IMG/VR virus record: IMGVR_UViG_3300045988_038226
Location: 1-45,325 of that record
Strand: one strand, 5' to 3'
DNA: 45,325 nucleotides
DNA from: a virus
This document shows, in pieces, positions 1 to 45,325 of this stretch. The notes under the pieces are model-generated. The model was not told where the DNA came from. It was given only the letters and a program-made list of their open reading frames with translations, and searched no databases. The number at the start of each line of letters is the position of its first letter. The first letter of the stretch is position 1. The translations under genes were made by a program, and so were the position numbers.

Positions 1-89
1 ATTTTTTTTTTGACCGCTTCCAATTGGGCGGTCAACTCGGCGTTCGGTGCATCGTCGAACAGTTGTAATACCTTTTGCAATCCGTCCGG
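1..89. repeat. Terminal direct repeat, copy 1 (identical to 45237-45325); most likely a circular-assembly overlap
   Basis: Both window ends read a+T10+gaccgcttccaattgggcggtcaactcggcgttcggtgcatcgtcgaacagttgtaataccttttgcaatccgtccgg. 89/89 nt identical, offset 45236. Confidence 0.95.
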
Positions 90-404
90 CGTCATATCGT
101 TGTATTCGGTTCCGTCCACGCTCTTAACCAAAGCGCAAAAAGCCAAATACCGGGGCGACATATCCGTTTGAATGAAATACACGTTTTGCCGCATATTATC
201 CAATTCCTTTTCCGCCAACTCCGGTTTATTGCCTCGGATAAATCGGATTGTCTTTTCAATATGCGTGTCCCAATCGTTAAGGTCGGAACCAACCCCGGCG
301 TCGATTAACAACGCTTTGTTATACGCATGAAATCGCAACATTGGCAATTCGTCGATACTATCGTACAACACAACCGCCCGTTTTCCAATCGTCGTTGTTC
401 TCAT
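1..404 (-). CDS. Junction-spanning gene, N-terminal part. It sits in the tail-assembly-chaperone position upstream of the tape measure and continues at 45236 down to 44870 (256 aa in total).
   Basis: Manual minus-frame translation. ATG at 404-402 overlaps (ATGA) the stop of ORF 401-661 and gives MRTTTIGKRAVVLYDSIDELPMLRFHAYNK... The frame stays open to base 1 and is in frame with ORF 44870-45316 through the repeat. Confidence 0.7.
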   Translation of the reverse strand, partial: MRTTTIGKRAVVLYDSIDELPMLRFHAYNKALLIDAGVGSDLNDWDTHIEKTIRFIRGNKPELAEKELDNMRQNVYFIQTDMSPRYLAFCALVKSVDGTEYNDMTPDGLQKVLQLFDDAPNAELTAQLEAVKKK

Positions 405-661
405 ATCAATATACGGGTTATGGCGGTTGAACAAAAAGGAACCAATAACAACCACGGGTTCCCGGTACATATCGCAAACAGAACCGACAAAGCGACCCCC
501 GCCCACCATGATAAGCAAAAGCCGCAATTGAACATCTTTGCGAAAAAGTCGTTGCCGTGAACTTGGACGTATTCAATAACGCCCCATTTTTTCAAAAGGG
601 ATAAAAGGAACGCCGCCACGGTTGCGACAATCAAAACCCATATTACAAATATCATTTCCAT
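401..661 (-). CDS. Small integral membrane protein (DUF1360-like CxxC..WW motif)
   Basis: 86-aa ORF with hydrophobic helices (VIWVLIVATVAAFLLSLL, AGVALSVLFAICTG, WLLLVPF) and a CGFCLSWW motif. ATGA-coupled to the next gene. Confidence 0.55.
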   Translation of the reverse strand: MEMIFVIWVLIVATVAAFLLSLLKKWGVIEYVQVHGNDFFAKMFNCGFCLSWWAGVALSVLFAICTGNPWLLLVPFCSTAITRILI

Positions 662-664
662 ATC

Positions 665-1264
665 TCAAATTTTACAAGGTTGCGAAACTGACAATATACC
701 CTCAAACCGGAACCCGGCGAACGGGTGCAATAAATATTGGTTATCGACTTCATCCAACGTAAAACCCCGGTACACGTTTTCGGCTAACTCATATACCCGG
801 TTTATCTCAATGGTTCCGTCCTTTAACCAAAAGCCGCCGTTTAAGACGGTTAATATTTCGTTCTTTAACGCCTCGGTATTCCGGTTGTTGAGTTGTCCCG
901 GATATACTTTGCGCAAGTCGAACCACACAATAAGCGCAAACGGGGCTTTTATTGTGCTTTGCTCTTTGGGAACCCAACCCACGTTTTGCGGGTCGTCAAC
1001 CCAAAAGAACCCGAAATTGCCAATATTGGCGTCCGGGGACACGTCGATATAATCGTTGTTGCCTCGGTACTGTGTGCCGCCCGCATATACGTTGGGCGTG
1101 AAATAGCGTTTGCCGTTGATAATCTTTGCGACCCTTTGCGCACGTCCAAATACGACGTCCAACCAATCGACGTTATCCATTAACCCGGCTTGTATATTCC
1201 CAATAACCCGGTCAATCAAAACCGGGTTTGGGATTATCGGAATTATTTTATTACTCTTTGCCAT
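665..1264 (-). CDS. Virion structural protein, possible tail tube (by position only)
   Basis: 199-aa ORF overlapping the upstream gene by 14 nt. It lies two genes upstream of the chaperone-position gene and tape measure. No motif recognised. Confidence 0.35.
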   Translation of the reverse strand: MAKSNKIIPIIPNPVLIDRVIGNIQAGLMDNVDWLDVVFGRAQRVAKIINGKRYFTPNVYAGGTQYRGNNDYIDVSPDANIGNFGFFWVDDPQNVGWVPKEQSTIKAPFALIVWFDLRKVYPGQLNNRNTEALKNEILTVLNGGFWLKDGTIEINRVYELAENVYRGFTLDEVDNQYLLHPFAGFRFEGILSVSQPCKI

Positions 1265-1727
1265 ATAACACGGTTTTTGCTTTTTTCAACAAATCGGGGT
1301 AAATGTATTGCCAAATCAACGACGCAATATTTTCGTCGGTCAATCCCAATATTTGCCGCCCGTACTTTTTTATCAAATCTTCGGTTTTGAAATCCGACGC
1401 CTTAATTTCAAACTGTTTGTCGCCGACCTCCAAATAAAAACTACTTTCAAAATCCCCTTCGTCCCGTAATGTTACCCGGTTCGTCGGTTGTCCTTTTTCC
1501 TCTTTAATGGAAATCGTCAACGGGGTATATGGCATATAATCCATAATATCCACGCCCAAACGGTTAATACCTTGTTCAAACAATTGTTCCTCGGCGTTGG
1601 CGTCGATAATAAACGCCGTTGTCATTCCGTCGTCGATTATTTCCCGGATATATAACCCGGACGACAAACCATTGTTGAAACGGTCAACGTTATTGCGCAA
1701 ATCCTGTATTGACTGCATACCCCCCAT
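1251..1727 (-). CDS. Virion structural protein (head-tail joining or tail-terminator position)
   Basis: 158-aa ORF between the 445-aa post-capsid gene and the putative tube gene. Synteny only. Confidence 0.3.
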   Translation of the reverse strand: MGGMQSIQDLRNNVDRFNNGLSSGLYIREIIDDGMTTAFIIDANAEEQLFEQGINRLGVDIMDYMPYTPLTISIKEEKGQPTNRVTLRDEGDFESSFYLEVGDKQFEIKASDFKTEDLIKKYGRQILGLTDENIASLIWQYIYPDLLKKAKTVLYGKE

Positions 1728-1734
1728 AATCCAA

Positions 1735-3072
1735 TTACGTTGTACGGTATTTAACGCCGTGGTTGTTACAAGTAAGGCAAATGCGGTCGATACCCTGCGT
1801 ATCTAATCGCAACGCCTCGTATGCTTTTTTAAGGTCATAACCCAAACCGCCCGGACGTACTCCGGTCGTGTTGCCGTCCAACTCGTAAAGTATTTCCAAC
1901 CGGGTTGCGTTTACTTGGTTCCTGTTTACCTTAACATCGGGGTTCATTGCCAACGTGCGCAAAGCGGTTGCGGCGACTTGACGTTGTATAACGGTTTGGA
2001 AAATCTGCCTTTCTTTAACGATAAAATCCGTTAGGTCGCAACCAACGGTTATTTCGCAATTCAACCCGTAATTCTGTGTTGTCGTGTACATCGTCAACGC
2101 CACGTCCCACAATTCCGGGTATTCGGCGAATGTTTCCGGGGCGTTGAACATAAACGGCGTAACCTGTAAATACTTGGTTATTTCTTTCCAACTTTCCAAC
2201 CCGTACCCGGTACACGTTCCGCACGGTTCCCGGCTCCAATCCTTAACCATGTTTATTGCCTCCATTCCGGCGGGCAATTCGTCTTGGTTATAACATAGAT
2301 ACCACGACCCCCCGGCGTTCGTTGCGTCGCTGATATACGGCAAATAACAGTCCTTTAACGGGAACCATTGAAAACCGCCATTTGTAACGGTAAAATTCAA
2401 ATCAAACGTCTTTACCGGGTCGATTTGCGACGAATGGAAAAGATACATACGAACCGTACCCGTTGCCCCTGTCATTTGTAAACCGATTTGTTCGATTTTC
2501 ATTGTTACCCCCATTGAACGAACCGGGACAATTTCAAACCCGACCAACTTATGTGTATTTTGCAACGTCGCCCGGATACGCCCCGCACCGTCAAAGAACG
2601 TGCGACGCTCCAAAAGGTTCTTTGTTTCCTTATCCAATCCTTTTACCTGTGTGAACGTTTGTACCATTTGCGCAATACCGTTGCGGGTCAATCGTTCCAA
2701 ATAGTCGGAAAGATAGTTGTAAACGCCCCAAAATTCGTTGCCGAAATCGCCGTTGAAATCTTCGTTAAAATCGCTTTTGGTTGGTTCCTCGTTTTGGTTG
2801 TCCTTTCGGGCAATCCAAATTTCGTTGTTGTGGCGAACCTTTGCCCCCTGTTTGTACTCAATTATCATATTCCATTCGGGATATTGATAAACGAAATCAT
2901 CCGGGACGATTGCCCGGATATTATCCAATGTTACAAGCGGGTGCGCACCTTGAAAATACAAACCGCTTTCGGTCTGCGTTAAATCGTCGTTTATTGCCTT
3001 TGCCGGGTCAAATGATTGTTCCCACCCGACGACGTGCAATAATGCGTCCTGTATTTCTTTTAATCGGTACAT
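1735..3072 (-). CDS. Virion-module protein of unknown function with an acidic DFN repeat
   Basis: 445-aa ORF directly after the capsid terminator. Contains SDFNEDFNGDFGNEF (nt 2725-2775) and Cys pairs (CGTC, CLTC). Confidence 0.35.
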   Translation of the reverse strand: MYRLKEIQDALLHVVGWEQSFDPAKAINDDLTQTESGLYFQGAHPLVTLDNIRAIVPDDFVYQYPEWNMIIEYKQGAKVRHNNEIWIARKDNQNEEPTKSDFNEDFNGDFGNEFWGVYNYLSDYLERLTRNGIAQMVQTFTQVKGLDKETKNLLERRTFFDGAGRIRATLQNTHKLVGFEIVPVRSMGVTMKIEQIGLQMTGATGTVRMYLFHSSQIDPVKTFDLNFTVTNGGFQWFPLKDCYLPYISDATNAGGSWYLCYNQDELPAGMEAINMVKDWSREPCGTCTGYGLESWKEITKYLQVTPFMFNAPETFAEYPELWDVALTMYTTTQNYGLNCEITVGCDLTDFIVKERQIFQTVIQRQVAATALRTLAMNPDVKVNRNQVNATRLEILYELDGNTTGVRPGGLGYDLKKAYEALRLDTQGIDRICLTCNNHGVKYRTT

Positions 3073-3086
3073 CTGCGTTCTAAATT

Positions 3087-3126
3087 AAAAAGGGGAACGG
3101 GGGTTATTGTCCCCGCCCCCCTTTTG
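3087..3126 (-). terminator. Rho-independent terminator after the major capsid gene
   Basis: Minus strand reads AAAAGGGGGGCGGGGACAATAACCCCCGTTCCCCTTTTT about 20 nt after the capsid stop: GC stem, 7-nt loop, T5 tail. Confidence 0.75.
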
Positions 3127-3146
3127 ATTAAACAATTGCGGCTCCC

Positions 3147-4244
3147 TTACGGCGTTACCGTCGGTTGTGGTACAACGTAAACGGGCATTGCTAACGGTTG
3201 GTTCGGGTCGCGTGCCTCAATTTCCGCTTTGATAATCGGGTTGGCAATCGTGGTCGGGTTGCTGTTATAAGCAACCATATACGCCACGTCAACGGAAAAT
3301 CCGAAATACTCCTTAACGGCGCACGTCAAATCTTCGGTTGCGGCTCCCATGATTGCGGATTGGTCGCCAACTGCGGTGTAATAGTGCGACCCAACGGGCA
3401 AATCAATGTACGGTAAACGTACAACGTCCCATTCGTGGAAATTCGCACGGGTGCGGCGCAACGCTTCACGGTCAACACGGGTTAAGATACCAACGTTGCC
3501 GTCCGCAACGGCAAAGAATGTACCCATTTTACCGCTTTCGTCGGTAACGTTGTTCGTGTAGTGGATAACCTTGTTATCGTATTCCATGCGCTTGTTAACG
3601 TCGTTGTAAATTCCGTGTTGCGCAAGTTTACGAATAAGGCTATCAACCCCGGCGTTGCCGATAACGTGGATATATTCCGGGTAACAGTTGGCACGCATAA
3701 TCGGGTTAACGTCGCCCAATATCTCGGTTGCCATTTGTTGCGGAACCTGTATAACGTTTCCGGTCTGCGTATAATTCAACAACGTTTCAAACACTTGCGT
3801 TTTGTTCGCCTCCATTGCGGCAACCGCCCCGGCGTCCAAAGTGTTTGCCAACGCACGGCACGTCTTTTCCATTTTGCGCAAAAAGTCGTGTTCGTATGAA
3901 ATTTCGTTGTTCATGTACGCCGCCGGAACCATTGTAAAGCCAATGGAATACGTCGCCCAAACAAGCGTTACCAATGCCGACGTATTTTCATTGTCGGCAA
4001 TAACGCACGAACGTACATTGCTTACCTGTACGTTTTCGTCGTAATTGATAACGGGAACTTGTACCGTGTTACCGATACTTGCAAACGCTTTATCCCTTAA
4101 ATTGGGATTAATGATTGAGGACGGGGCGTTGGTTTGCTCAATGAAAAAGTCCAATGCGCCATACTCACACGGGCGGGTCATATTACGGTCTAACTCCGGG
4201 TTCTGTACTCGCCAATTCTGCAATCTTGTTGCTACTAATGACAT
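3147..4244 (-). CDS. Major capsid protein (putative)
   Basis: 365-aa ORF immediately after the scaffold-like gene, followed by the clearest terminator in the window. Size and position are typical of HK97-fold capsid proteins. No motif-level proof. Confidence 0.6.
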   Translation of the reverse strand: MSLVATRLQNWRVQNPELDRNMTRPCEYGALDFFIEQTNAPSSIINPNLRDKAFASIGNTVQVPVINYDENVQVSNVRSCVIADNENTSALVTLVWATYSIGFTMVPAAYMNNEISYEHDFLRKMEKTCRALANTLDAGAVAAMEANKTQVFETLLNYTQTGNVIQVPQQMATEILGDVNPIMRANCYPEYIHVIGNAGVDSLIRKLAQHGIYNDVNKRMEYDNKVIHYTNNVTDESGKMGTFFAVADGNVGILTRVDREALRRTRANFHEWDVVRLPYIDLPVGSHYYTAVGDQSAIMGAATEDLTCAVKEYFGFSVDVAYMVAYNSNPTTIANPIIKAEIEARDPNQPLAMPVYVVPQPTVTP

Positions 4245-4272
4245 AATCTAAAATTTTTATTGTTATTAAATG

Positions 4273-4291
4273 CGGGTTAACCCTTTACCCG
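4273..4291 (-). promoter_or_regulatory. Late-region motif copy: CGGG[TAAAGGGTTAA]CCCG stem-loop upstream of the capsid gene
   Basis: Minus strand reads ACGGGTAAAGGGTTAACCCGC, 30-45 nt upstream of the ATG at 4244. The core is near-identical to the copies at 8324-8336 and 11012-11024. Confidence 0.5.
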
Positions 4292-4297
4292 TGTTGT

Positions 4298-5251
4298 TTA
4301 CTTTTCCGGCAATGCGGCAATATTGTTGTCCGTCCATGCCTGTTTCATTGCGGCGTCGAACTTTTCAGAACCCGCCGTTAATCCTTGCGACATAAGGTTG
4401 GCGGCGATTGCGTCGTAAGCCTCAACCCTTGTTTTTGCGCCGGATACGTCGATTGTACCGCCGCCCGCACCGCCGGAACCGCCCGCCGGGGGAACCGTTC
4501 CGCCGCCGCCCGCTTGACGTCCTTTGTCTAAAATACCCATTGTTTCCAATTCACGGGTCAAAAGGTCGCCGGGGGTGTACGGGTTCAACTGATTGTTCGG
4601 GTTACGCATGATTGCGCCGTTTTCGTCCTTAAACGCTAATACTTTGCCGCCCTTTCCGTCGTCGATAAACTCCGGGTTCATACCCTTAATTTTGTCAACG
4701 GCTTGCGACAATAGAACCTTTGTTGCGCTTTCCGGCAATCCCGCCTTAAACTTCAATCCGGCGGTCGCTGTCTGCAATGCCGTTTCAACACGTATGCCGA
4801 ACAATTCCGTTGTATGGGTTTGTTCGGCTTGGTCGTATTTCGTTTTTAGGTCGTTGAACTGCGTTGTAATCGCCGTTAAATCGGCTTTCGCTTGTTTCAA
4901 TGCCTTTGCGGTTTCCGCATCCGTCGCACCGTCGGCAATTGCCTTTTCCAAACGTGCCTTTTCTTTCGTCAGACTTTCGATTTGGGTTGATAACGTGGTT
5001 GCGCTTTCCGCTTTGGTTTTGAACTCGGACAACACACGCTTTGCGTAATCGTATGTTTTTTCCGTTCCGTTTTTCGCCACGCCCGTTGCCGCCAAAATAT
5101 CGGCGTCCAAATCGCCGTAAATTTTGCCCGTCTTTTGGGCTATAACGCTGTTTTCGTCATTGGCTGATAACGTGGTTATCGCCGCCAATTGTTCGTCGGT
5201 TAATCCGGCTAAAGCCGCATTTGCCTTTAATATCTCTACTGTTAATGCCAT
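4298..5251 (-). CDS. Scaffolding protein (putative)
   Basis: 317 aa, Ala/Lys/Glu/Thr-rich and helical, with a Gly-rich linker GGGGTVPPAGGSGGAGGG. Directly upstream of the capsid gene. Confidence 0.55.
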   Translation of the reverse strand: MALTVEILKANAALAGLTDEQLAAITTLSANDENSVIAQKTGKIYGDLDADILAATGVAKNGTEKTYDYAKRVLSEFKTKAESATTLSTQIESLTKEKARLEKAIADGATDAETAKALKQAKADLTAITTQFNDLKTKYDQAEQTHTTELFGIRVETALQTATAGLKFKAGLPESATKVLLSQAVDKIKGMNPEFIDDGKGGKVLAFKDENGAIMRNPNNQLNPYTPGDLLTRELETMGILDKGRQAGGGGTVPPAGGSGGAGGGTIDVSGAKTRVEAYDAIAANLMSQGLTAGSEKFDAAMKQAWTDNNIAALPEK

Positions 5252-5288
5252 AATTCTAACCCTTTGAATTTATGTGTTTAATACTCTG

Positions 5289-5789
5289 TTACTTTTTCGC
5301 CTCGGCTTTCTCGGCGGCTTTTGTTTTTGCCAACGCATCGGCAACGGCTTTGGCAATCGCCTTTTCGTTCGCCTCGGCTTGCGCTTTCAATGCTTTCTCA
5401 ACGGCGGCGTCGATTGCCTTTTGGTTTTCCTCGGCGGCTTTTGCCTCGGCTTCCTTACGGGCGGTTTCGGCGGCGGCGGCTTTCTCGGCTTTCGCCTTTT
5501 CGTTCGCCTCGGCTTGCGCTTTCATGTAATCGGCGGGGTCGTGCAAAATCGTTACCGTGTAACCCTGTTTTTTCAGATTGGAACCAACGCCGTTGTCAAA
5601 CGACTTTTTGCCGAACTTCTGAATACGGGGAACGGAAAGACGTTTGCCGCTTTCCGAATCGAATTTGCGTACCTCAATGATACAATGATACAAATGTTTC
5701 TCATTGTCGGGGACAATGTAATTTTCCGGGGTAACGTCCGTAATGGCGACGTCTTTAACTTTCCCCTCGGTTCCTGCTTTCACTCGCAT
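5289..5789 (-). CDS. Head-module coiled-coil protein with an internal duplication
   Basis: 166 aa. The C-terminal half is AKAEKAAAAE-type helix. An in-frame 29-nt duplication (5361-5389 = 5496-5524) encodes KAQAEANEKA twice. Confidence 0.35.
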   Translation of the reverse strand: MRVKAGTEGKVKDVAITDVTPENYIVPDNEKHLYHCIIEVRKFDSESGKRLSVPRIQKFGKKSFDNGVGSNLKKQGYTVTILHDPADYMKAQAEANEKAKAEKAAAAETARKEAEAKAAEENQKAIDAAVEKALKAQAEANEKAIAKAVADALAKTKAAEKAEAKK

Positions 5790-7479: not shown

Positions 7480-7630
7480 TATCGACAAATTCAAAAGTTG
7501 ATTTTTCGGGTAATTGCCAACCTCCATTGTTTCGCATACGCAAAAGCCTTTCGGCGTGGCTTATCTCATAATCGACGGTTACGTTTAAGGTCGGACACTC
7601 CAACGCAACCTTTGTAACCTTTGCGTTCAT
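7412..7630 (-). CDS. Small hypothetical protein
   Basis: 72-aa ORF, TAATG-coupled to the upstream gene. Its 3' 68-116 nt overlap the portal ORF in another frame. Confidence 0.35.
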   Translation of the reverse strand: MNAKVTKVALECPTLNVTVDYEISHAERLLRMRNNGGWQLPEKSTFEFVDNGIRRKGNKKTDNGTTETGDDK

Positions 7631-8277: not shown

Positions 8278-8319
8278 AATCTTAATTTTTTAACGTTAAA
8301 AACTTATGTTACTATCTCC

Positions 8320-8340
8320 GGGGGTTTACCCTTTACCCCC
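8320..8340 (-). promoter_or_regulatory. Late-region motif copy: GGGGG[TAAAGGGTAAA]CCCCC stem-loop
   Basis: Minus strand reads AAAGGGGGTAAAGGGTAAACCCCCGG in the terL to 215-aa intergenic region, 45-60 nt upstream of the ATG at 8277. A TAACTTTG (-7-like) box lies at 8361-8354. Confidence 0.5.
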
Positions 8341-8403
8341 TTTGTTTCGGCTACAAAGTTATAAACTTTTTCAGTTATAAACTTGCATATCCCAAAAATA
8401 TTG

Positions 8404-10864: not shown

Positions 10865-11011
10865 TGTTCAACCTCTTTTAATGTTCAAACGGGGTAAAAA
10901 TTAACCCTTTGCGCTTTATGCCTTTTGCGTCCTTTGGTTCTTTTGTCCCCTTTGACGTTTTCGGCTTTCCGGCTCTCTGTGTTCTTTTGTCGCCCGCCCT
11001 CCTTAAAACGT

Positions 11012-11204: not shown

Positions 11205-11210
11205 TGCCTA

Positions 11211-37637: not shown

Positions 37638-37639
37638 AA

Positions 37640-38503: not shown

Positions 38504-41267
38504 ACTTCAATGTTACTTTATTACTGCGACTATGCAAAGTTATTGATATTTTGTCTATTTGCCCCGTCCCTATTGGGGTTTTTATTAATTTCATTGGGTC
38601 GGGGTCGTCAATGGACGGATATGTTACAACCTGTTTTTTCTTTCTCTCAACGCCATACGCCGAAATTTCGGAATTATTAATTTTACAACGACGGGCGGGC
38701 AAATCATACGGGTAAAACGTCGGTTGTAAGTACATCCAACTAACTAATCCGTTTTGCATCGTGTACGTTTCGGACGTATCCGGGCGTTGCACATACGGCA
38801 ATTTATATGTTTCCTCCAACACGTAAAACGTTGCCAATTCTGACGTCGTAACAGTACAACGCATATATTTTGCATTGTCCGGGGCGATTAATGTTTGGTT
38901 CCACGCTTGCGCCTGACTATTACCGGATATATAGTTTTTATTCGCATCGTAAAACGCAACGTAATAACGATATGAAAGAAAATACATATACCCCCCGGAT
39001 ATTTCGATATAATCCGTTGCATTGAACGCCGCCGGGTTTGTTGGGTGGTAAATCAATTGCCCGTTCGACGGATTGACGTAATACCCTTTATTGACCGTAT
39101 TTGCGTTAAATAAATTCCCCTGTCTTTTCGTTGCGGCGAATAATGCAAACCCGTCGTCGCTGATTGCTCCGGGGTTCATCAACATATAATCCACGTCGGT
39201 TGTAAAGTTGGAAACGTTGACCGTTTCAATTTTCCCGGCGGTTACGTACTTACTTATAACGTCGATTGGATACCCGGCGAAATTCTTTGTTACGTCGTCC
39301 ATCCACTCAAATTGGAACCGTTCCGCCAAATCGACCTTTTCAAATTCCCACGCCGACGAATTGAACCCCCATTTTTTACCGTTGCGTACATTGGTTAACA
39401 ACGTCAAATCGGCGGTCAATTGTTGGTTATATCCATACGTTCCGCCATTACGGAACCATTGTATATGCTCAATCTTAAATTTCCCGTCCTCAATGTACCA
39501 AAACGCCCGGAAACAATCCCGTAACATAGTTGTAATTTGTTGCAACGTTACCGGGGCTTTTTGTGCGGGTTGGTCGTATTCGCCTTTTAGTATGTTTGTT
39601 TTTTGAGTAACCAACAACGTAAATTGCGCATACGAAATCGGGTTGTTTCGTGCGTATAAAAATTGGCTGTATTCCTCGGTCGGTTCGTGGGTAATGCCGG
39701 GCGCAAACTGTTTGAGTAAAACAGATATTGCGGACGAAATCGGGTAAGCATCACGCAACGTATATGTTTTGCGCCCTTGTTCCTCCAATATCCAATCGAA
39801 CAACGCAAAACCGAACCAAACGGACGCATAACGCCACGTTGACCGGGCAATTGGGAAAAATTCCTGTCCCCAAATGGAATTCGGCGGAACAAAGTAATTA
39901 CCATTGTCCGCCCGCCCCCATTGCGTCGGCTCGGTCGTGAAACTGCTTGATATATACCCAACGTCGATTGCGTAACCTATTGCCCTGTGATAATTTCGGT
40001 TATTTTCAACAATATCGTCCGACGGTAACGGGTATGTATCCAATCCCTGTATTTGCATTACGTCCAATAAATACCGAACGTAAATGTTATACGTCGCCAT
40101 TTCAACGGTTGCGGTTCCGGTTGCGCCGTTTGCCGTGTTCGCACTCATTGTAAAATCCAAATTATCCCATACGCCCGACCCGCCGACGTTTGTTTGATAA
40201 GTGAACATTTCCGCACCGTCCGAACTGCGTATTATCTTACATTGTACAATACCGAACCACGGCGGTAAATATTGCATCGCAACGGTTATATAATACCCGG
40301 TTGTTGTATCGGGATATAACGACCCGGTAAAATTATTGCCACTTAACGACATACGCCCGGTATATAACCCGTTAATTGCTGTCGGGGTTCCGTTAACGGT
40401 AACTTTCATTTCTTTAAGCATACTGCATAAAGCAAAATGATACGTCCGAACCAATGCGTTACGGTCGGTTACAACGTTGGCGTCTTGTTCCCAATACGTC
40501 CCGGCGGTAAAACATGAAACGACACTATCGCCGGGAATATAAACCTGTATAAGCGGGCGTTTATCCATTTGGCAACGAACAATCCGGGGGGCTAATTCCA
40601 ACAAATTATATTCCTTTTCCAATCCCGCCAACGTATCGTTATATTCGTCCAATACGTCCGGTTGTACGGTGCATTTCAAATCGTCCTCGTTCCATTGGCA
40701 ATCCGTTTTCATAAATTTACCCGTAAAATCCCGGTTCCATGTAACGCCCAAATCGTCCGACTTATCCATTAAAAAACGAAATTCCGTTTCAAATGATTTG
40801 CCCGCTAAATACTTATAATCGTCCCGGATAAACGATATTTTACCGGACAATTTAGGACGATAAAAACGTTGGTTGGTTTCCAACTCCCAATCTTTCGCCA
40901 AATCGTCCTTATAAACCGGGAATACTTGACGGATTGGGCGCATTTCAAACAACGTTTCGTTTGCATTGGTTACACAAACCCGCATATATACCGCCCCGTT
41001 GGGTATATCGGCGATAATTTCCCCGCCGGATATGTACCGCCCGGATATAAACGTACTTTCGTCGTAACCCCTATAAAACGAAACGGAATACCCATTGTCA
41101 AACAAAAATTGTTTTTCCGGTATGTTGGATATATATATATAACTCGACGTCTTAAAACCCGCATTAGCGGTCATTGCACCGCTATTGGGGTTTAATATTT
41201 GCCCGGCTTGGAAATATTGGTATAAATCATCGTCCGGGGCAATAAAAAATCTATAAATCGGGTTCAT
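38484..41267 (-). CDS. Large distal-tail protein (Dit position) with two related carbohydrate-binding-like modules
   Basis: 927 aa immediately after the tape measure. Two modules, aa 36-110 and 746-818, share YIxIS...YxVxFY...ISG...IxxPxxAxYMRxxVT. Confidence 0.45.
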   Translation of the reverse strand: MNPIYRFFIAPDDDLYQYFQAGQILNPNSGAMTANAGFKTSSYIYISNIPEKQFLFDNGYSVSFYRGYDESTFISGRYISGGEIIADIPNGAVYMRVCVTNANETLFEMRPIRQVFPVYKDDLAKDWELETNQRFYRPKLSGKISFIRDDYKYLAGKSFETEFRFLMDKSDDLGVTWNRDFTGKFMKTDCQWNEDDLKCTVQPDVLDEYNDTLAGLEKEYNLLELAPRIVRCQMDKRPLIQVYIPGDSVVSCFTAGTYWEQDANVVTDRNALVRTYHFALCSMLKEMKVTVNGTPTAINGLYTGRMSLSGNNFTGSLYPDTTTGYYITVAMQYLPPWFGIVQCKIIRSSDGAEMFTYQTNVGGSGVWDNLDFTMSANTANGATGTATVEMATYNIYVRYLLDVMQIQGLDTYPLPSDDIVENNRNYHRAIGYAIDVGYISSSFTTEPTQWGRADNGNYFVPPNSIWGQEFFPIARSTWRYASVWFGFALFDWILEEQGRKTYTLRDAYPISSAISVLLKQFAPGITHEPTEEYSQFLYARNNPISYAQFTLLVTQKTNILKGEYDQPAQKAPVTLQQITTMLRDCFRAFWYIEDGKFKIEHIQWFRNGGTYGYNQQLTADLTLLTNVRNGKKWGFNSSAWEFEKVDLAERFQFEWMDDVTKNFAGYPIDVISKYVTAGKIETVNVSNFTTDVDYMLMNPGAISDDGFALFAATKRQGNLFNANTVNKGYYVNPSNGQLIYHPTNPAAFNATDYIEISGGYMYFLSYRYYVAFYDANKNYISGNSQAQAWNQTLIAPDNAKYMRCTVTTSELATFYVLEETYKLPYVQRPDTSETYTMQNGLVSWMYLQPTFYPYDLPARRCKINNSEISAYGVERKKKQVVTYPSIDDPDPMKLIKTPIGTGQIDKISITLHSRSNKVTLKYDTDSQ

Positions 41268-41271
41268 GCGC

Positions 41272-44200
41272 TTAATTCTTATATTTTCGTTTCAAATTCT
41301 TGTAAATCTCAACAACCTTTCCGTCCCCTGTCATATAGAAACGGCGTTTGTTTTGCTCCTTAATTTCCCGAACGTCGTTTTGCAACTCTTTTATATCCGG
41401 GCTTTGTCCTGTAACATTCAAAACCACATCGTCGCCCCCGGCGTATGCGTTGCCGTATTTACGGGCAAAGGTTCCATTGTTCAACGACCGGATAACGTCC
41501 GGGATTAAACGACGATAACGGCGGGAATTGCGTTTATTGATAACGGCGAAAAATTCCCCGCCCTCGGCACGCCTCCGGGTTCCGTCCGGCTTGGTTCCTA
41601 AATCCACATCGTCGCCGGATTGGTGCGACCCGCCCGCCAACAATTCAACCGTACCGTCGCCGTAACTTTCGGAACCGCCCCCGGCGGCTTTCGACATTTG
41701 GGCGGCTTTGATTTTAGCGGCGGCAAAGGACGCCCACATTATCGCAATCGCCGGGATTGCAAAGGGGAACCCTAATTGCGACCAAATCATTGCAGACGCC
41801 GTTACAAGGTTGCCGATTTGTTGGATTGTTTGGATTGCCTGTTGTGCCTTTTGCGCTTTCTGTTGTTCTTTCAACGCTTTGTCTTGGTTCTTTTTCGCCA
41901 AATCCAACTCCTTTTGCGCCATTACAACGTTATTGGCATACCCGTTCGCCCGTGCGGTCAACTCGGCGTTCAATACGTTTTGTGCGCTTGAAACTTCCTT
42001 ATCGGCGGCGGTAACGGCGGCATCGGCGGCGGCTAACTTTGCATCCAAAAACGTTTGTAATTGCTCCATTGCAAAATTAACGGACGTACTTATTGCCTCC
42101 TTTTGGTCGTCGTCTAAATTCAACCCAAACAGTCCGTAAATATCTTTGCCCCGTTCGTCGCCGCTTGACTTTTCAATTTCTTGGTTAATTTTGGCAATCG
42201 TATTTTCGATTGTCTTAACCTCTTGTTCCGTCATTTTTACCCCGGCGGTTTTGTTCAATTCCAAAATCTTTTGCAATCTCTTTTTTTCTTGTTCCAACCG
42301 GAACCGGGTTTTGCGTTCCTCGCTGTTACGCAACAAATCGAACTCGGACGCCTCCAACGCTTGCGTTTGGTCGAATATCAATAACGCCCGTTGGTTGTTT
42401 AACTCGGTCGTTTGCTTCAATACCTCGGCATCATATTTGGCGTTTATATCCTTTTCAGATTGGCGGACGTCCTCGGCTAATTGCCTATTTTGTGCTAATT
42501 CGATTGCCCGTTGTTGTTGTAACAATTGGATACGCAAATTTATTTCCTCCTGTGAACCCTCACGGGCGGCGTCCAACCGTAATTGCGTGCGGTCGGCTTC
42601 TTTCTGCATTTGGTCGATTGTTATTTGGTCGTTCAATTCGCCCAATTCTTTTGCGTATTGTTGTTGCAAAAGGATTTGTTGTGCCAATAATTCGTCAACC
42701 TGTTTTTCAGTCAACCCCCTTTCGGTTTCCAACCGTGTTGCAATATCCTGTATTTGCCTTTCATATTCAACCCGCAATTGTTCCCGTTGTTTTTCCGCAC
42801 CCTCGGACATTAACGCCAATCGTGCGTCCTGTGTGGTACGTTCCGCCGACAATTCCGCCGCCCTTTGTTGGTTGGCAATATCGACCAAATCGTTTGCCAA
42901 TTGTTGACGCAATGAAACGATTTGCGCATTTAACGCCGCCCGTGCTTTGGCGGTCAAATTTGCCTCGGTGCGTAACTGCAATTGTATATCGGCAATCGCA
43001 CGGGCGTTGGCGGCTCGGCGTGTTGCCCGTTGTTGGTCGAATGAATTTTTAATTAATGCAATACGGGCGTCCTCGGCTTTACGCAATATATCCGTTTCAG
43101 TCTTGGCGGCGTTCCGGGCTTCGTTTGCTCTTTGTGCGGCTTGTATTTTCCTTTCGGCGTCCAAATCCGCCCCCTCTGTGTTAAGGTCAACGGCAATTTG
43201 TACTTTGCGCCCGTAATTATCAATTTGTCCTTGTATGGCGTCTATTGCGTCGTCAACCTTGACTTTATCAATTTTGCCGTCCATATCGACGTCGATACGT
43301 ATTTTACTATCGCCACGGGCTTTTGCGTTGTTGACTTGCAACAACATATCGTTCAATTGCTTTAACTTTAAGCGGTTTGCCTCCAAATCGTTCAATTCTT
43401 GACCATAGAACCCAACCGATTTGTTATGCGCCTTTGTGCGTTCCGCCAATATTTCGTCCTCAATCTTTCGGGTTTCGGCTAATCCGGCGTTCCGGGCTTT
43501 GGCAATACTTAATTCCCGGTTCAATTGGGCGACACGCTCGTTGCTTACTCGGTTCATTTCGGTTGCTTCAACCTCCAAATAATCCAACCACGCCTTTTGC
43601 GCCTCGTTGAGTTTCTTTTGTTCTTTCGCGGATTTGTCGGTATTGGACGCAAATATTGCCAACGCTCCGACAACGGTAATTAACGCCAATGCCAAAAGAA
43701 CGTAAGGATTTGCCGCCGCAACTAAATTGAATATCTTTTGCGCAATAGTCGCCGCCAACGTCGCCTTTGTCCCCTGCATGGTTACAAGTCGGTTATAAAC
43801 TTGCGCTTTACTCAATGCCGCCATTTGGATTTTAGATATACCCAACATAAGTGCGGATTGTTTTTGTACGGCGTTTTGGATTGCTTGCACTCCGGTTGTA
43901 ATGGCAATTGCCGCTTGCAATTTCTTTTGTGCCTCGGCGACGTCCTCGGACGCACCCCCGAACAATTCCATTGCCCCGGTATATGCGGAAAATCCCCCGG
44001 ACGCACCCGCCGCAAAACTCAATACGCTATCTAATTGCGACGTATCGGACGCCATATTTTTAACTTCCTGTGTTGCGTCGCTCAATGCGTCCCGCAAATC
44101 CCCGGCTTTCTTTGATAACTCGGCGTATTCCTGCGTACCCTGTTTGCCCTCTAATCGCATAACCGCCAATTGTTCGGTTAATTGTCGGATTTGGGACGTA

Positions 44201-44763
44201 AGTTTAACCGTTGCTTGTTCGTAATTACCAACGTTTAAGGACGTTTTGCCCGTTACTTCCTGTAACCGCTTCATTTCTTGATATATTGCGTTTGTTTCCG
44301 CAACTAACTTTCGCCCCTCCTCGGTCGCCTCCCTTTCCTCAACCGTCATGTTGTTAAGGTATATTTTGTTTAGGGAATATTGCGCCGATAACTTGTTATA
44401 CGAACCCTCGGCGGATTGATTTAACCGGGTCGTAAGTTTATTAATTTCGTTTGCCTCTTTTTGGGCTTGCTTCAATTCTGCCAAACGCTTTGCGTTCTCG
44501 CTTTCTGCAAACGCCAAATCCCGTGCCGCACGGGTCAAACGGTCGGTATCGGACGTTGCCCCCTTTATGGTTTTTCGTCCGTCCTCGGTTGCCCCGGACA
44601 CACTCGCCAACGCCGCCCGAACGCTGATTGCCTCACTCTTAATATTTTTAAGAGTATTCATATAGGCGTCGGAAAGTTGGTCTAATTGGTTGATAAGGTC
44701 GGTAATCGAATTATCCGGCTTTACCAAATCACTATATTTTATCGGGTTGTTATTATCTGCCAT
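41272..44763 (-). CDS. Tail tape measure protein
   Basis: 1163 aa, the longest helical gene. Extended Ala/Gln/Glu/Lys coiled coils and internal hydrophobic segments (LLALALITVVGALAIFAS, FPFAIPAIAIMWASFAAA). Confidence 0.85.
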   Translation of the reverse strand: MADNNNPIKYSDLVKPDNSITDLINQLDQLSDAYMNTLKNIKSEAISVRAALASVSGATEDGRKTIKGATSDTDRLTRAARDLAFAESENAKRLAELKQAQKEANEINKLTTRLNQSAEGSYNKLSAQYSLNKIYLNNMTVEEREATEEGRKLVAETNAIYQEMKRLQEVTGKTSLNVGNYEQATVKLTSQIRQLTEQLAVMRLEGKQGTQEYAELSKKAGDLRDALSDATQEVKNMASDTSQLDSVLSFAAGASGGFSAYTGAMELFGGASEDVAEAQKKLQAAIAITTGVQAIQNAVQKQSALMLGISKIQMAALSKAQVYNRLVTMQGTKATLAATIAQKIFNLVAAANPYVLLALALITVVGALAIFASNTDKSAKEQKKLNEAQKAWLDYLEVEATEMNRVSNERVAQLNRELSIAKARNAGLAETRKIEDEILAERTKAHNKSVGFYGQELNDLEANRLKLKQLNDMLLQVNNAKARGDSKIRIDVDMDGKIDKVKVDDAIDAIQGQIDNYGRKVQIAVDLNTEGADLDAERKIQAAQRANEARNAAKTETDILRKAEDARIALIKNSFDQQRATRRAANARAIADIQLQLRTEANLTAKARAALNAQIVSLRQQLANDLVDIANQQRAAELSAERTTQDARLALMSEGAEKQREQLRVEYERQIQDIATRLETERGLTEKQVDELLAQQILLQQQYAKELGELNDQITIDQMQKEADRTQLRLDAAREGSQEEINLRIQLLQQQRAIELAQNRQLAEDVRQSEKDINAKYDAEVLKQTTELNNQRALLIFDQTQALEASEFDLLRNSEERKTRFRLEQEKKRLQKILELNKTAGVKMTEQEVKTIENTIAKINQEIEKSSGDERGKDIYGLFGLNLDDDQKEAISTSVNFAMEQLQTFLDAKLAAADAAVTAADKEVSSAQNVLNAELTARANGYANNVVMAQKELDLAKKNQDKALKEQQKAQKAQQAIQTIQQIGNLVTASAMIWSQLGFPFAIPAIAIMWASFAAAKIKAAQMSKAAGGGSESYGDGTVELLAGGSHQSGDDVDLGTKPDGTRRRAEGGEFFAVINKRNSRRYRRLIPDVIRSLNNGTFARKYGNAYAGGDDVVLNVTGQSPDIKELQNDVREIKEQNKRRFYMTGDGKVVEIYKNLKRKYKN

Positions 44764-44788
44764 AACGCCAATTATTACTTTGTTATTT

Positions 44789-44805
44789 GCGGGAAATTTG
44801 CCCGC
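44789..44805 (-). other. Intergenic stem-loop upstream of the tape measure gene
   Basis: gcgggaaatttgcccgc: 5-bp GC stem and a 7-nt A/T loop in the 106-nt gap. Confidence 0.45.
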
Positions 44806-44869
44806 TATTCAATTTTCTTTCCTCGGTAATACAATTTACCCACCGGAACCAATTAACGCCGGAAACGGG

Positions 44870-45325
44870 CTATTTTGCGCCCGCTTTGGCGTTCTTTGGT
44901 TTGGTCGCCTGTTTGATATACTCAAATGCGTTGTAATATTCCAATACGGTAAACGTTTTGGGGTTTACGTGCAAATGTTGGGACAACATTAAACACATAT
45001 TTTCAAACTGTTTGTCGTACTGTATTTCCATGCTATCCGAACCGCTAAACGATTGGGGTTTGGTATAAGTCAACAACAACGTCGTTATTTGCTCAATTTC
45101 CGCCCGTTTGTCGGTTTCGTCGCCCTGTATGATTGCGTCCAACATTAACAACGTGCGTTGCTTCAATTGGTCGTAATACTCTTTAACCGTGGCGTCGTCG
45201 AAACTTTTAGGAAAATACAATTGCAACTCATCGTCTATTTTTTTTTTGACCGCTTCCAATTGGGCGGTCAACTCGGCGTTCGGTGCATCGTCGAACAGTT
45301 GTAATACCTTTTGCAATCCGTCCGG
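44870..45325 (-). CDS. Junction-spanning gene, C-terminal part (same gene as 1-404; 45237-45325 duplicates 1-89)
   Basis: The track ORF 44870-45316 begins with TTG rather than ATG because the window edge truncates it. The frame is continuous with 90-404. Confidence 0.7.
   Translation of the reverse strand, partial: PDGLQKVLQLFDDAPNAELTAQLEAVKKKIDDELQLYFPKSFDDATVKEYYDQLKQRTLLMLDAIIQGDETDKRAEIEQITTLLLTYTKPQSFSGSDSMEIQYDKQFENMCLMLSQHLHVNPKTFTVLEYYNAFEYIKQATKPKNAKAGAK
45237..45325. repeat. Terminal direct repeat, copy 2
   Basis: Identical to bases 1-89. Confidence 0.95.

What the first reader, a model, noticed from the sequence alone, without database searches (positions are those of the whole stretch)
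1..45325. Apparent complete absence of the palindromes GATC, GGCC and AGCT
I read every line of the window, checking block and line boundaries. I found no GATC, no GGCC and no AGCT, and no CTAG either (CTAG is generically rare). Other 4-bp palindromes are frequent: CCGG, TCGA, ACGT, GTAC, AATT, TTAA, GCGC, TGCA and CATG.

At about 1 per 256 positions, each tetramer would be expected on the order of 100-200 times in 45 kb. GG, CC, GC and AT dinucleotides are abundant, so composition does not explain the gap.

This looks like extreme restriction-site avoidance against DpnII/MboI/Sau3AI-type (GATC), HaeIII-type (GGCC) and AluI-type (AGCT) enzymes. It fits with the lack of any methyltransferase gene in the genome. 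It also constrains codon-pair choice across every gene.
Basis: partly seen in the sequence, partly recalled or inferred. Interest (0 to 1): 0.75.

Follow-up and report, generated by a model that had tools for sequence, protein, structure and literature searches.

The report
Phage genome purged of restriction sites
This complete gut Bacteroidales phage genome has lost nearly every short palindrome that its hosts' restriction enzymes could cut, and has also stripped the dinucleotide CT from its coding strand, an extreme form of a known phage escape strategy.

Summary
GATC, GGCC, AGCT and CTAG occur 0 times in 45,325 bp. With proteins and codon usage kept, 100, 150, 39 and 9 copies are expected.

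CGCG (2 found, about 238 expected), GGWCC, GAWTC/GANTC, CCWGG, GTCTC, CCATC and CCTTC are also gone. So are 47 of the 64 palindromic hexamers. Absence is specific to palindromes: 12 of 28 palindromic hexamers with an expectation of at least 10 are absent, against 5 of 1,119 non-palindromic pairs.

The window is a complete PDS1-like siphovirus, 88.8% identical to Alistipes phage AS73P1. Its relatives share the pattern, with host-linked differences. The avoided words match methylation motifs documented in Bacteroides and Parabacteroides. No methyltransferase domain was found.

Restriction avoidance is therefore well supported for GATC and GGCC. AGCT and CTAG are largely casualties of a second feature: CT is five-fold depleted on the coding strand, in all codon phases and between genes. 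That also removes several non-palindromic tetramers from one strand.

CT is one of only two dinucleotides (with CG) that synonymous codon choice can remove completely here. Sister lineages deplete TC or CG instead. Substitution data favour selection over mutation bias. I read the CT depletion as generalised restriction evasion, but that part is inference.

The parts
1..45325 (.). Whole genome lacking GATC, GGCC, AGCT, CTAG, GGWCC, CCWGG, GTCTC/GAGAC and 47 of the 64 palindromic hexamers. CGCG, GANTC, CCATC and CCTTC are nearly absent.
   Evidence: k-mer counts against composition, Markov and codon-shuffle nulls.
401..45145 (-). Coding strand. All 60 ORF-genes lie on the - strand. CT observed/expected is 0.19 here (AG 0.19 on the + strand): 0.28, 0.14 and 0.16 in the three codon phases and 0.29 between genes. 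The remaining CTs are mostly CTTT or CTTA.
3209..3212 (.). One of the only two CGCG sites.
43627..43630 (.). The second of the only two CGCG sites.
39877..39882 (.). The only GAATTC site (about 12 expected).
8256..8259 (+). One of two CTGG words on the + strand. CCAG is absent there, so no CCWGG site exists.
26079..26082 (+). The second CTGG word on the + strand.
1..89 (+). Exact 89-bp repeat of positions 45237-45325. This terminal overlap shows the window is a complete, circularly closed assembly of a phage genome.
45237..45325 (+). Second copy of the 89-bp terminal overlap.
20573..21796 (-). DUF2400/TIGR02757 protein (407 aa). I considered it as a possible DNA-modification gene and rejected it as the cause of the composition.
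   Evidence: It is absent from BKO1-3 and TCUEAP2, which show the same CT depletion.
15026..15877 (-). Radical SAM protein (283 aa) with weak matches to the PA0069 and Rv2578c families. Considered and rejected as the cause.
   Evidence: No such gene is annotated after the SSB gene of TCUEAP2, which has CT at 0.19.

Best explanation
The window is the complete genome of a lytic PDS1-like siphovirus of gut Bacteroidales. It carries no recognisable DNA methyltransferase. It escapes host restriction-modification by not containing the target sequences.

Two layers are visible.

Layer 1 is classical site-by-site avoidance. Selection has removed every GATC and GGCC and nearly every CGCG. It has also removed GGWCC, GAWTC/GANTC, CCWGG, several Type IIS-type words (GTCTC, CCATC, CCTTC) and almost all G+C-containing palindromic hexamers. 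This matches a host group in which hundreds of different methylation motifs circulate.

Layer 2 is a bulk removal of the dinucleotide CT from the coding strand, and more weakly of AG. For these proteins CT is one of only two dinucleotides, with CG, that synonymous codon choice can remove completely. Removing CT from one strand has two consequences:
- It abolishes every palindromic or bipartite target that needs CT on both strands. AGCT, CTAG, CTNAG, CTGCAG, AAGCTT and xAG-N-CTx Type I sites are examples.
- It leaves AG-containing asymmetric targets in a single orientation. That arrangement is known to protect T7 from the Type III enzyme EcoP15.

Shown: the counts, their significance, their conservation and host-linked variation, the match to host motifs, and the substitution pattern indicating selection against new CTs.

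Inferred: that restriction enzymes, rather than another DNA-level agent, are what selects against CT.
For: Identity and completeness:
- The window is 88.8% identical to Alistipes phage AS73P1. It is related to PDS1, PD491P1, BKO1-3 and C1_85S2P.
- It has an 89-bp terminal overlap.

Layer 1, site avoidance:
- Observed over Markov-expected counts: GATC 0/79, GGCC 0/210, CGCG 2/238, GGWCC 0/71, GAWTC 1/60, CCCGGG 0/63, CYCGRG 0/81, RCCGGY 0/55, TCCGGA 0/26.
- Codon-shuffle expectations are 100, 150 and 185 for GATC, GGCC and CGCG.
- Absence is palindrome-specific: 12 of 28 palindromic hexamers with expectation >=10 are absent, against 5 of 1,119 non-palindromic pairs.
- The pattern is shared by 6 isolates and about 45 metagenomic relatives.
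- Host-linked differences: GATC occurs 139 times in the Elizabethkingia phage. TTTAAA is absent only in the window and AS73P1. GTTAAC is depleted only in the PDS1 subgroup.

Match to host motifs (PMC10333322):
- 639 methylation motifs were found in 268 isolates.
- GATC and CTGCAG occur in all five species. CGCG and CCAGG/CCTGG occur in every P. distasonis isolate.
- GGCC, GGNCC, CTAG, YGGCCR, RCCGGY, TCCGGA, CCCGGG, GTATAC, CATATG, GAATTC, CTTAAG and VAGCTB/SAGCTS are also listed.
- The window has no site for 73% of 48 palindromic host motifs. B40-8 lacks 17% and PD691P4 25%.
- It has no site for 43% of 176 bipartite motifs, against 10% in both controls.

Methyltransferase: no such domain in any of 60 ORFs.

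Layer 2, CT depletion:
- CT observed/expected is 0.19, in all codon phases and between genes.
- The minimum possible count given the proteins is 0 only for CT and CG, 59 for TC, 735 for AG and at least 597 for every other dinucleotide.
- Related lineages deplete TC (P2559S at 0.25, L088 at 0.28). One contig that shares only one gene has CG at 0.01 (L091).
- Among 601 young synonymous changes, those that create a CT number 39 against 98 expected. All six mutational routes are suppressed (ratios 0.12-0.60). C>T loss at CT is not elevated.
- 33 of 34 host motifs that need CT on both strands have no site. Of 76 asymmetric motifs with CT in one orientation, 51 occur in one orientation only.
- I recoded the proteins with B40-8 codon usage as a baseline. 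Against it, CTs inside host-motif occurrences are down about 14-fold and those outside about 2.4-fold.
- The T7/EcoP15 orientation precedent is described in PMC3874151.
Against: - A crude test found no link between how often a tetramer occurs in host motifs and its depletion (rho = -0.08, not significant).
- AG/CT is not more frequent in host motifs (45%) than GA/TC (48%), CA/TG (52%) or CC/GG (45%). The choice of CT is therefore explained by coding freedom, not by targeting.
- CT depletion is conserved in phages of different host orders. It is also present in relatives that do not avoid GGCC or CGCG (L066, L071). It is therefore partly decoupled from palindrome avoidance and could have its own cause.
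- The CT/AG asymmetry persists in reduced form in ORF-free DNA (0.29-0.41 against 0.44-0.74). Coding constraint alone does not explain it.
- Most Type II methyltransferases of these hosts appear to be orphans without an adjacent endonuclease. A methylation motif therefore does not prove that the site is restricted.
- Plain AGCT was not found as a host motif.
- The hosts of this particular genome are unknown.
- No experiment was possible.
Confidence: 0.72

Rival explanations
1. A single agent reads a very short CT-containing (or AG-containing) motif on one strand. It could be a frequent nicking endonuclease or a nuclease specific for single-stranded DNA or RNA. It could be a Bacteroidota defence. 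It could also be a phage-encoded host-shutoff nuclease that the phage evades by lacking the motif. Chloroviruses, as I recall, carry nickases with 2-3 nt specificity (R^AG, ^CCD). On this view the CT depletion is separate from palindrome avoidance.
For: - Depletion acts at dinucleotide level, is uniform along the genome and is independent of codon phase.
- It depends on context. CT followed by C or G within two bases is almost absent, while CTTT and CTTA are tolerated.
- It is conserved across host orders and occurs in relatives that keep GGCC, CGCG or GATC.
- Related lineages show a different single dinucleotide (TC), or CG in a contig that shares only one gene.
- Some asymmetry remains in ORF-free DNA.
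Against: - No candidate nuclease gene correlates with the trait. The clade shares a whole replication module, so nothing could be singled out.
- The highly expressed capsid gene has more CT than average (12.8 per kb). This argues against an RNA-level cost that scales with expression.
- Partial depletion, with 405 CTs left, would not protect against a nuclease that needs only one site.
- CTs inside documented host restriction-modification motifs are depleted about six times more strongly than those outside.
Confidence: 0.17
2. A context-dependent mutational bias drives CT out of the genome without selection. One candidate is deamination of cytosine, or methylated cytosine, at CpT on the strand exposed during replication or transcription. 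Another is a property of the phage's own DnaQ-like proofreading subunit. This would be analogous to CpG decay or APOBEC footprints.
For: - TT (1.72) and AA (1.32) are enriched where CT and AG are depleted, as CT>TT would predict.
- The effect is stronger on the non-template strand.
- The trait is clade-wide and independent of host.
- CpT depletion with CpG excess in invertebrate DNA viruses has been attributed in part to non-CpG methylation (PMC4219779).
Against: - C>T at CT sites is not faster than C>T elsewhere (6/87 against 118/1827).
- The deficit lies in the creation of CT, and all six independent mutational routes at both positions are suppressed (0.12-0.60). One mutational mechanism cannot do that.
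- Specific CT-containing words are at exactly zero although expected 7-27 times (CTTC, CTGG, CCTG, GCTG, CTCG, CTCC).
Confidence: 0.06
3. Codon-usage or translational selection, or a sequencing or assembly artefact caused by modified bases, produces the missing words.
For: NCT and CTN codons are very rare: GCT, CCT, ACT and TCT each make up 2-4% of their families, and the four CTN codons together supply 15% of Leu codons.
Against: - CT is just as depleted across codon junctions (0.16) and between genes (0.29).
- Codon shuffles that keep the biased usage still predict 940 CTs and 100, 150 and 39 GATC, GGCC and AGCT sites.
- The pattern recurs in isolates sequenced by several laboratories and in dozens of metagenomic contigs.
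- ORFs are intact over 95% of the genome.
Confidence: 0.03

Closest known systems
Restriction-site (palindrome) avoidance in phage genomes, as surveyed in PMC6286503. From my own knowledge, the classical cases are T7 and staphylococcal phage K, which lacks GATC.
   Same: - Short palindromes recognised by host Type II systems are missing far beyond compositional expectation.
- The phage has no recognisable methyltransferase.
- The set of avoided words changes with the host.
   Different: - The scale is much larger: 4 of 16 tetramer palindromes absent and CGCG nearly so, 47 of 64 hexamer palindromes, and interrupted and Type IIS-type words.
- 43% of the documented Type I-type host motifs have no site at all.
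Strand bias of Type III sites in phage T7. All 36 EcoP15 sites have one orientation, so the DNA is not cut (PMC3874151, citing Meisel et al. 1992).
   Same: Asymmetric targets occur on one strand only. Of 76 host motifs that have CT in one orientation, 51 are present in a single orientation in the window.
   Different: - In T7 the bias concerns one hexamer. Here it follows from removing a whole dinucleotide from one strand.
- Which host motifs belong to Type III systems is not known, and protection was not tested.
CpT(ApG) depletion with CpG excess in large DNA viruses of invertebrates (PMC4219779).
   Same: The dinucleotide signature is the same: CT and AG low, CG high (1.67 here).
   Different: - Those are eukaryotic viruses, and the paper proposes host non-CpG methylation or immune sensing as the cause.
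- Here the host is bacterial and the depletion is strand-asymmetric.
- It comes with complete loss of many palindromes.
- The substitution data do not show hypermutable CT.
CpG depletion through 5mC deamination, and APOBEC TC footprints in animal viruses (my own knowledge).
   Same: One dinucleotide is depleted and its transition product is enriched (TT).
   Different: - Loss through C>T is not accelerated here.
- Creation of CT is suppressed through all six mutational routes.

Membership tests
Restriction-site avoidance by a phage | Target words are under-represented against nulls that account for composition, oligonucleotide content and coding. | tested here: met
   - GATC 0, GGCC 0, CGCG 2 and AGCT 0, against 79, 210, 238 and 12 (Markov).
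- Against 100, 150, 185 and 39 (codon shuffle).
-.
Restriction-site avoidance by a phage | Avoidance is concentrated on restriction-type words (palindromes), not on words in general. | tested here: met
   - 12 of 28 palindromic hexamers with expectation >=10 are absent, against 5 of 1,119 non-palindromic pairs.
- As double-stranded sites, the only tetramers at zero are four palindromes.
- Caveat: on a single strand, CT-containing non-palindromic tetramers are also absent.
Restriction-site avoidance by a phage | The avoided words correspond to specificities present in the hosts. | tested here: met
   - GATC, GGCC, GGNCC, CGCG, CCWGG, CTAG, CTGCAG, TCCGGA, RCCGGY, CCCGGG, GTATAC, CATATG, GAATTC and CTTAAG are methylation motifs of B. 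fragilis-group isolates.
- AGCT appears only as VAGCTB, SAGCTS, SAGCT or AAGCTS.
- These are methylation motifs. The cognate endonucleases are not shown, and the window's own host is unknown.
Restriction-site avoidance by a phage | The avoided set varies among related phages according to host. | tested here: met
   - GATC: 0 in gut relatives, 139 in Elizabethkingia phage TCUEAP2.
- TTTAAA: absent only in the window and AS73P1.
- GTTAAC: depleted only in the PDS1 subgroup.
- CCATC/GATGG: avoided in the window, AS73P1 and TCUEAP2 only.
-.
Restriction-site avoidance by a phage | No self-protection by the phage's own methyltransferase or base modification. | tested here: inconclusive
   - No methyltransferase domain in any of 60 ORFs by Pfam.
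- Most ORFs have no Pfam match at all.
- A DUF2400 protein and a radical SAM protein have unknown function.
- The chemistry of the DNA cannot be read from sequence.
Restriction-site avoidance by a phage | Introducing sites makes the phage sensitive to restriction. | not testable with these tools
   This needs plating experiments.
Orientation-bias evasion of Type III-like systems (T7/EcoP15 type) | Asymmetric target words are present in one orientation only. | tested here: met
   - 46% of 150 asymmetric host motifs occur in one orientation only, and 18% are absent. The one-orientation figure is 9-11% in B40-8 and PD691P4.
- 51 of the 76 motifs with CT in one orientation are single-orientation.
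Orientation-bias evasion of Type III-like systems (T7/EcoP15 type) | The hosts carry Type III (or similar) enzymes with those specificities, and these need inverted site pairs. | tested here: inconclusive
   - The host paper reports Type III methyltransferases, all with an adjacent endonuclease.
- It does not assign motifs to enzyme types in the text I could read.
Mutation-driven dinucleotide decay (CpG/5mC or APOBEC type) | Accelerated loss of the dinucleotide through one specific substitution. | tested here: not met
   - C>T at CT: 6/87 = 0.069, against 0.065 in other contexts.
- The deficit is in CT creation, through all six mutational routes.
-.
Codon-usage (translational) bias | The effect is confined to within-codon positions. 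| tested here: not met
   CT observed/expected is 0.16 across codon junctions and 0.29 between genes.

The most novel reading that the evidence does not exclude
A clade of Bacteroidota siphoviruses uses 'dinucleotide purging' as a generic, pre-emptive anti-restriction strategy. From the coding strand it removes one of the few dinucleotides the genetic code lets it remove at no protein cost. PDS1-like phages remove CT and Croceibacter phage P2559S removes TC. An unrelated contig that shares only one gene with the window lacks CG almost completely.

This wipes out whole classes of targets at once. Every palindromic and Type I site containing that dinucleotide is lost, and every asymmetric site is forced into one orientation. 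The phage would thus be protected against restriction specificities it has not yet met.

An alternative novel reading is a still unknown defence or phage nuclease with dinucleotide-level specificity.
Probability: 0.35. Interest if true: 0.8.

Novelty: new variant of a known kind. Interest (0 to 1): 0.6.

Why it matters
Gut Bacteroidales carry an exceptionally diverse and fast-changing set of restriction-modification systems. How their lytic phages keep infecting them is an open question.

This genome shows how far pure sequence avoidance can go. It has no recognisable methyltransferase, yet it has no site for about three quarters of the documented palindromic host motifs and over 40% of the Type I-type motifs.

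If the coding-strand CT depletion is indeed restriction-driven, three things would follow:
- It would be a genome-wide, code-permitted shortcut that gives advance protection.
- It would be a measurable signature for predicting the host range of phages seen only in metagenomes.
- It would be a design rule for building phages or DNA vectors that enter hard-to-transform Bacteroides.

It also warns that strong one-strand k-mer gaps can be mistaken for individual site avoidance.

Tried and rejected
1. Codon usage as the cause of CT loss. Rejected: junctions and intergenic DNA are equally depleted.

2. The DUF2400 and radical SAM genes as the cause, through DNA modification. Rejected: BKO1-3 lacks the DUF2400 gene and TCUEAP2 appears to lack both, yet they show CT at 0.19-0.23. 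The sequence search of solved structures returned no significant match for either protein.

3. Separating a transcription-linked from a DNA-strand-linked effect by finding relatives with inverted gene blocks. No window in 60 CT-depleted sequences showed a clear reversal, because all genes are co-oriented. This remains unresolved.

4. A first young-versus-old substitution test using singletons. It suggested that CT-creating mutations arise at the neutral rate (39 observed, 39.2 expected). The singletons came mostly from a few contigs and had a nonsynonymous/synonymous ratio of 2.3, which looks like error or misalignment. I discarded that result. The test was redone on tight clusters. There the deficit of CT creation is already 0.40, so age classes do not separate. 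Only the breakdown by mutational route is informative.

5. A correlation between host-motif content of tetramers and their depletion. Not significant (rho = -0.08).

6. A gene present in all CT-depleted phages but absent from non-depleted relatives. The clade shares an entire replication module, so nothing specific emerged.

7. Literature. The PDS1 paper does not mention restriction sites or dinucleotides. I found no paper describing this composition in Bacteroides phages. The library is limited, so prior description cannot be excluded.

8. A phage tRNA that would support the codon shift. There is none in the window. Only AS73P1 carries tRNA-Gln(UUG).

Full report
**1. The observation**

Exact counting on both strands confirms that GATC, GGCC, AGCT and CTAG are absent from the 45,325-bp window, which is 46.1% G+C. 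Expected counts under three nulls are:

| Null model | GATC | GGCC | AGCT | CTAG |
|---|---|---|---|---|
| Base composition | 169 | 125 | 169 | 169 |
| Maximal-order Markov | 79 | 210 | 12 | 5 |
| Codon shuffle (mean ± SD) | 100±8 | 150±9.5 | 39±5.6 | 8.8±2.5 |

- The codon shuffle used 300 reshufflings of synonymous codons that keep every protein and the genome's codon usage. No shuffle came near zero for the first three words.
- The window is a complete genome. Its first 89 bases repeat exactly at its end.

**2. What the genome is**

- The window is 88.8% identical over 64% of a 24.9-kb query to Alistipes phage AS73P1.
- It is related to Parabacteroides phages PDS1 and PD491P1, Bacteroides phages BKO1-3 and C1_85S2P, and more distantly Elizabethkingia phage TCUEAP2.
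- The capsid protein links it further to the B40-8/B124-14 group, to Croceibacter phages and to Flavobacterium phages.
- All 60 ORF-genes lie on the - strand and cover 95% of the sequence.
- Pfam, NCBIfam and PHROGs recognise a lysis module (holin, amidase) and a recombination and replication module. That module contains a PD-(D/E)XK exonuclease, a Gp3-like protein, an SMC/RecN-like ATPase, a DnaQ-like exonuclease, a protein PHROGs labels 'DNA topoisomerase' (phrog_6247), SSB and an HNH protein.
- They also recognise a DUF2400/TIGR02757 protein and a radical SAM protein.
- No DNA methyltransferase domain appears in any ORF.

**3. The avoided set is much larger than reported**

With the Markov expectation, which factors out lower-order biases, these words are also missing:

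| Word | Observed / expected |
|---|---|
| GGACC, GGTCC | 0/52, 0/19 |
| GAATC, GATTC | 0/33, 1/27 |
| GANTC overall | 1/74 |
| CCAG, CTGG (so no CCWGG) | 2/45, 0/17 |
| GAGAC (GTCTC) | 0/15 |
| GATGG (CCATC) | 3/33 |
| GAAGG (CCTTC) | 1/17 |

- Of the 64 palindromic hexamers, 47 are absent. Examples: CCCGGG 0/63, TCCGGA 0/26, GTCGAC 0/19, TTTAAA 0/19, ACCGGT 0/18, GATATC 0/15.
- The survivors are mostly A+T-rich: AACGTT 58/57, CAATTG 48/47, TTGCAA 47/51.
- Among hexamers expected at least 10 times, 12 of 28 palindromes are absent, against 5 of 1,119 non-palindromic pairs.
- The bias is therefore palindrome-specific and bimodal, as strong selection against restriction targets would produce.

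**4. Relatives and hosts**

- All gut relatives share zero GATC, GGCC and CTAG and almost no CGCG. That covers five isolates and about 45 IMG/VR contigs.
- The pattern tracks the host:
  - GATC is frequent (139 copies) in the Elizabethkingia phage.
  - TTTAAA is absent only in the window and AS73P1.
  - GTTAAC is depleted only in the PDS1 subgroup.
  - CCATC is avoided in the window, AS73P1 and TCUEAP2.
- A methylome survey of 268 B. fragilis-group isolates (PMC10333322) found 639 motifs, far from saturation.
  - GATC and CTGCAG occur in all five species.
  - CGCG and CCAGG/CCTGG occur in every P. distasonis isolate.
  - GGCC, GGNCC, CTAG, YGGCCR, RCCGGY, TCCGGA, CCCGGG, GTATAC, CATATG, GAATTC, CTTAAG and VAGCTB/SAGCTS are also listed.
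- I transcribed 198 contiguous and 176 bipartite motifs from that table. The share of motifs with no site in each genome:

| Motif class | Window | B40-8 | PD691P4 |
|---|---|---|---|
| 48 palindromic | 73% | 17% | 25% |
| 176 bipartite | 43% | 10% | 10% |

- Among asymmetric motifs, 18% have no site in the window and 46% occur in one orientation only. The two control phages show 8-14% and 9-11%.
- Two caveats apply. Motifs are evidence of methylation, not of cutting, and most Type II methyltransferases there look like orphans. The host of this exact genome is also unknown.

**5. The second layer: coding-strand CT depletion**

- The + strand has AG at 0.19 of expectation and CT at 0.51. On the coding strand that is CT 0.19 and AG 0.51, together with CG 1.67 and TT 1.72.
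- The depletion is uniform along the genome.
- It holds in codon positions 1-2 (0.28), positions 2-3 (0.14), across codon junctions (0.16) and between genes (0.29). It is therefore not codon usage.
- Several non-palindromic tetramers are missing from one strand only: CTCC, CTCG, CCTG, GCTG and CTTC on the coding strand. Their complements occur 39-172 times.
- This is also why the Markov expectations for AGCT and CTAG are so low.
- The 405 remaining CTs are mostly CTTT or CTTA. CT followed by C or G within two bases is almost excluded.
- CT and AG also avoid each other at short range. CT-N0-2-AG occurs 0, 0 and 2 times and AG-N4-7-CT occurs 2-5 times, against 16 expected at each spacing. The second spacing fits Type I targets of the form xAG-N-CTx, which are common in the host list.

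**6. Distribution of the trait**

- CT depletion (0.17-0.29) marks the whole PDS1-like clade and TCUEAP2.
- It also marks more distant contigs that do not avoid GGCC or CGCG (L066 at 0.27, L071 at 0.24, L063 at 0.47).
- Relatives such as B40-8, PD691P4 and the gut contig MT835637 lack it (0.82-0.91).
- Croceibacter phage P2559S and contig L088 instead deplete TC on the coding strand (0.25-0.28).
- Contig L091, which shares only one gene with the window, has CG at 0.01.
- A dynamic-programming calculation on the window's own proteins gives the minimum count reachable by synonymous codon choice: zero only for CT and CG, 59 for TC, 735 for AG, and at least 597 for every other dinucleotide.
- The dinucleotides depleted in these phages are therefore the ones the genetic code lets a phage remove for free.

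**7. Selection or mutation**

- An alignment of 39 related 8.9-kb segments was built. My first test, on singletons, was unreliable.
- I repeated it on five tight clusters of at least 96% identity. That gave 601 synonymous and 220 nonsynonymous derived changes.
- CT-creating synonymous changes number 39 against 97.9 expected from the type-specific rates.
- All six routes that create CT are suppressed: A>C 0.18, A>T 0.12, C>T 0.26, G>C 0.60, G>T 0.36, T>C 0.26.
- C>T at existing CTs is not accelerated (0.069 against 0.065).
- One mutational mechanism cannot suppress six routes at two positions. Selection against the product can.

**8. Link between the CT depletion and restriction**

- Removing CT from one strand abolishes every target that needs CT on both strands. 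In the window 33 of 34 such host motifs have no site.
- Of 76 asymmetric motifs with CT in one orientation, 51 occur in a single orientation. That arrangement protects T7 from EcoP15 (PMC3874151).
- I recoded the window's proteins with the codon usage of B40-8. That gives 1,884 CTs, of which 64% lie inside an occurrence of a documented host motif.
- The real genome keeps 371 CTs in genes, of which 23% lie inside such occurrences.
- CT inside motifs is thus down about 14-fold and CT outside about 2.4-fold. In-motif counts of the other dinucleotides I compared changed by at most about 1.6-fold.
- Against a simple restriction explanation:
  - A crude tetramer-level correlation with host-motif content is nil.
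  - AG/CT is no more common in host motifs than GA/TC, CA/TG or CC/GG.
  - The trait is conserved across host orders.
  - A reduced asymmetry remains in ORF-free DNA, with CT at 0.29-0.41 and AG at 0.44-0.74.
- A dedicated agent with dinucleotide-level specificity therefore remains possible.

**9. Verdict**

- Its interpretation is right for GATC and GGCC. It is incomplete in scope and only indirectly right for AGCT and CTAG.
- Restriction-site avoidance by phages is well known (PMC6286503). This genome is an extreme case.
- The coding-strand depletion of a code-permitted dinucleotide, with related lineages depleting other 'free' dinucleotides, is a variant I did not find described.
- The nearest compositional analogue is CpT(ApG) depletion with CpG excess in invertebrate DNA viruses (PMC4219779).
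- My confidence is about 0.9 that GATC, GGCC, CGCG and the hexamers reflect restriction avoidance.
- It is about 0.5 that the CT depletion is restriction-driven rather than due to another DNA-level agent.

Noticed in passing
L091 (IMGVR_UViG_3300023198_000260), 1-14270: CG dinucleotide observed/expected is 0.01 at 44% G+C, so CpG is essentially absent. CT (1.51) and AG (1.29) are in excess. This contig shares only the phrog_6247 ('DNA topoisomerase') gene with the window.
   Followed up: partly
L010 (Croceibacter phage P2559S, whole genome) and L088: TC on the coding strand is at 0.25-0.28 (GA 0.71-0.78) with GC at 1.74, uniform along the genome. P2559S lacks a different palindrome set: CATG, CCGG, CGCG, GGCC and CTAG at 0-1 copies. 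It is the same kind of one-strand depletion but of another dinucleotide.
   Followed up: partly
window 20573-21796 (-) and 15026-15877 (-): One is a 407-aa DUF2400/TIGR02757 protein (E = 6e-60) with a roughly 160-aa C-terminal extension. The other is a 283-aa radical SAM protein that weakly matches the PA0069 and Rv2578c families. Function is unknown. They are present in some relatives and absent in others. The sequence search of solved structures returned no significant match for either protein.
   Followed up: partly
window, coding strand, genome-wide: AG followed by CT at spacings of 2 and 4-7 nt is 3-8-fold rarer than expected from the already low CT count. CT followed by AG at spacings of 3-6 nt is slightly enriched. 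The first fits xAG-N-CTx Type I targets. The second is unexplained.
   Followed up: partly
window, residual CT sites (e.g. the 8-mers TAACTTTG x5, CCGCTTTG x4, TTGCTTTG x4): Many surviving CTs sit in ...CTTTG contexts. TAACTTTG matches the Bacteroides -7 promoter consensus TAnnTTTG as I recall it. Some CTs may therefore be kept for function.
   Followed up: no
L011 (Parabacteroides phage PD691P4, whole genome): This related siphovirus of P. distasonis shows no avoidance of GATC (249/243), GGCC (118/122), AGCT or CTAG, and no CT depletion, but it has zero CGCG (0/49). It presumably uses another anti-restriction strategy.
   Followed up: no
L006 (Elizabethkingia phage TCUEAP2): GATC is over-represented (139 copies against 73 expected), while GGCC, CGCG and CTAG are absent and CT is at 0.19.
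   Followed up: no
L001 29384-29457; window: AS73P1 carries a tRNA-Gln(UUG) that the window lacks, although both use CAA for about 80% of Gln codons.
   Followed up: partly
L003 (BKO1-3) 2360-2974 and 42043-42363: This relative carries an annotated DNA methyltransferase and a Lar-like restriction-alleviation gene that have no counterpart in the window. It still shows the same site avoidance.
   Followed up: no
L042, L030, L016 and other IMG/VR contigs: A few metagenomic relatives carry 1-4 GATC or 1-3 GGCC sites. L042 also supplied most of the 'singleton' differences, with an error-like nonsynonymous/synonymous ratio. Some of these sites may therefore be assembly noise rather than real variants.
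   Followed up: partly
L002 (PDS1) 23502-25054 versus window 8404-9957: The large terminase is annotated as two CDS in PDS1. The PDS1 paper raises an assembly or genetic-code issue. In the window it is a single intact 517-aa ORF.
   Followed up: no
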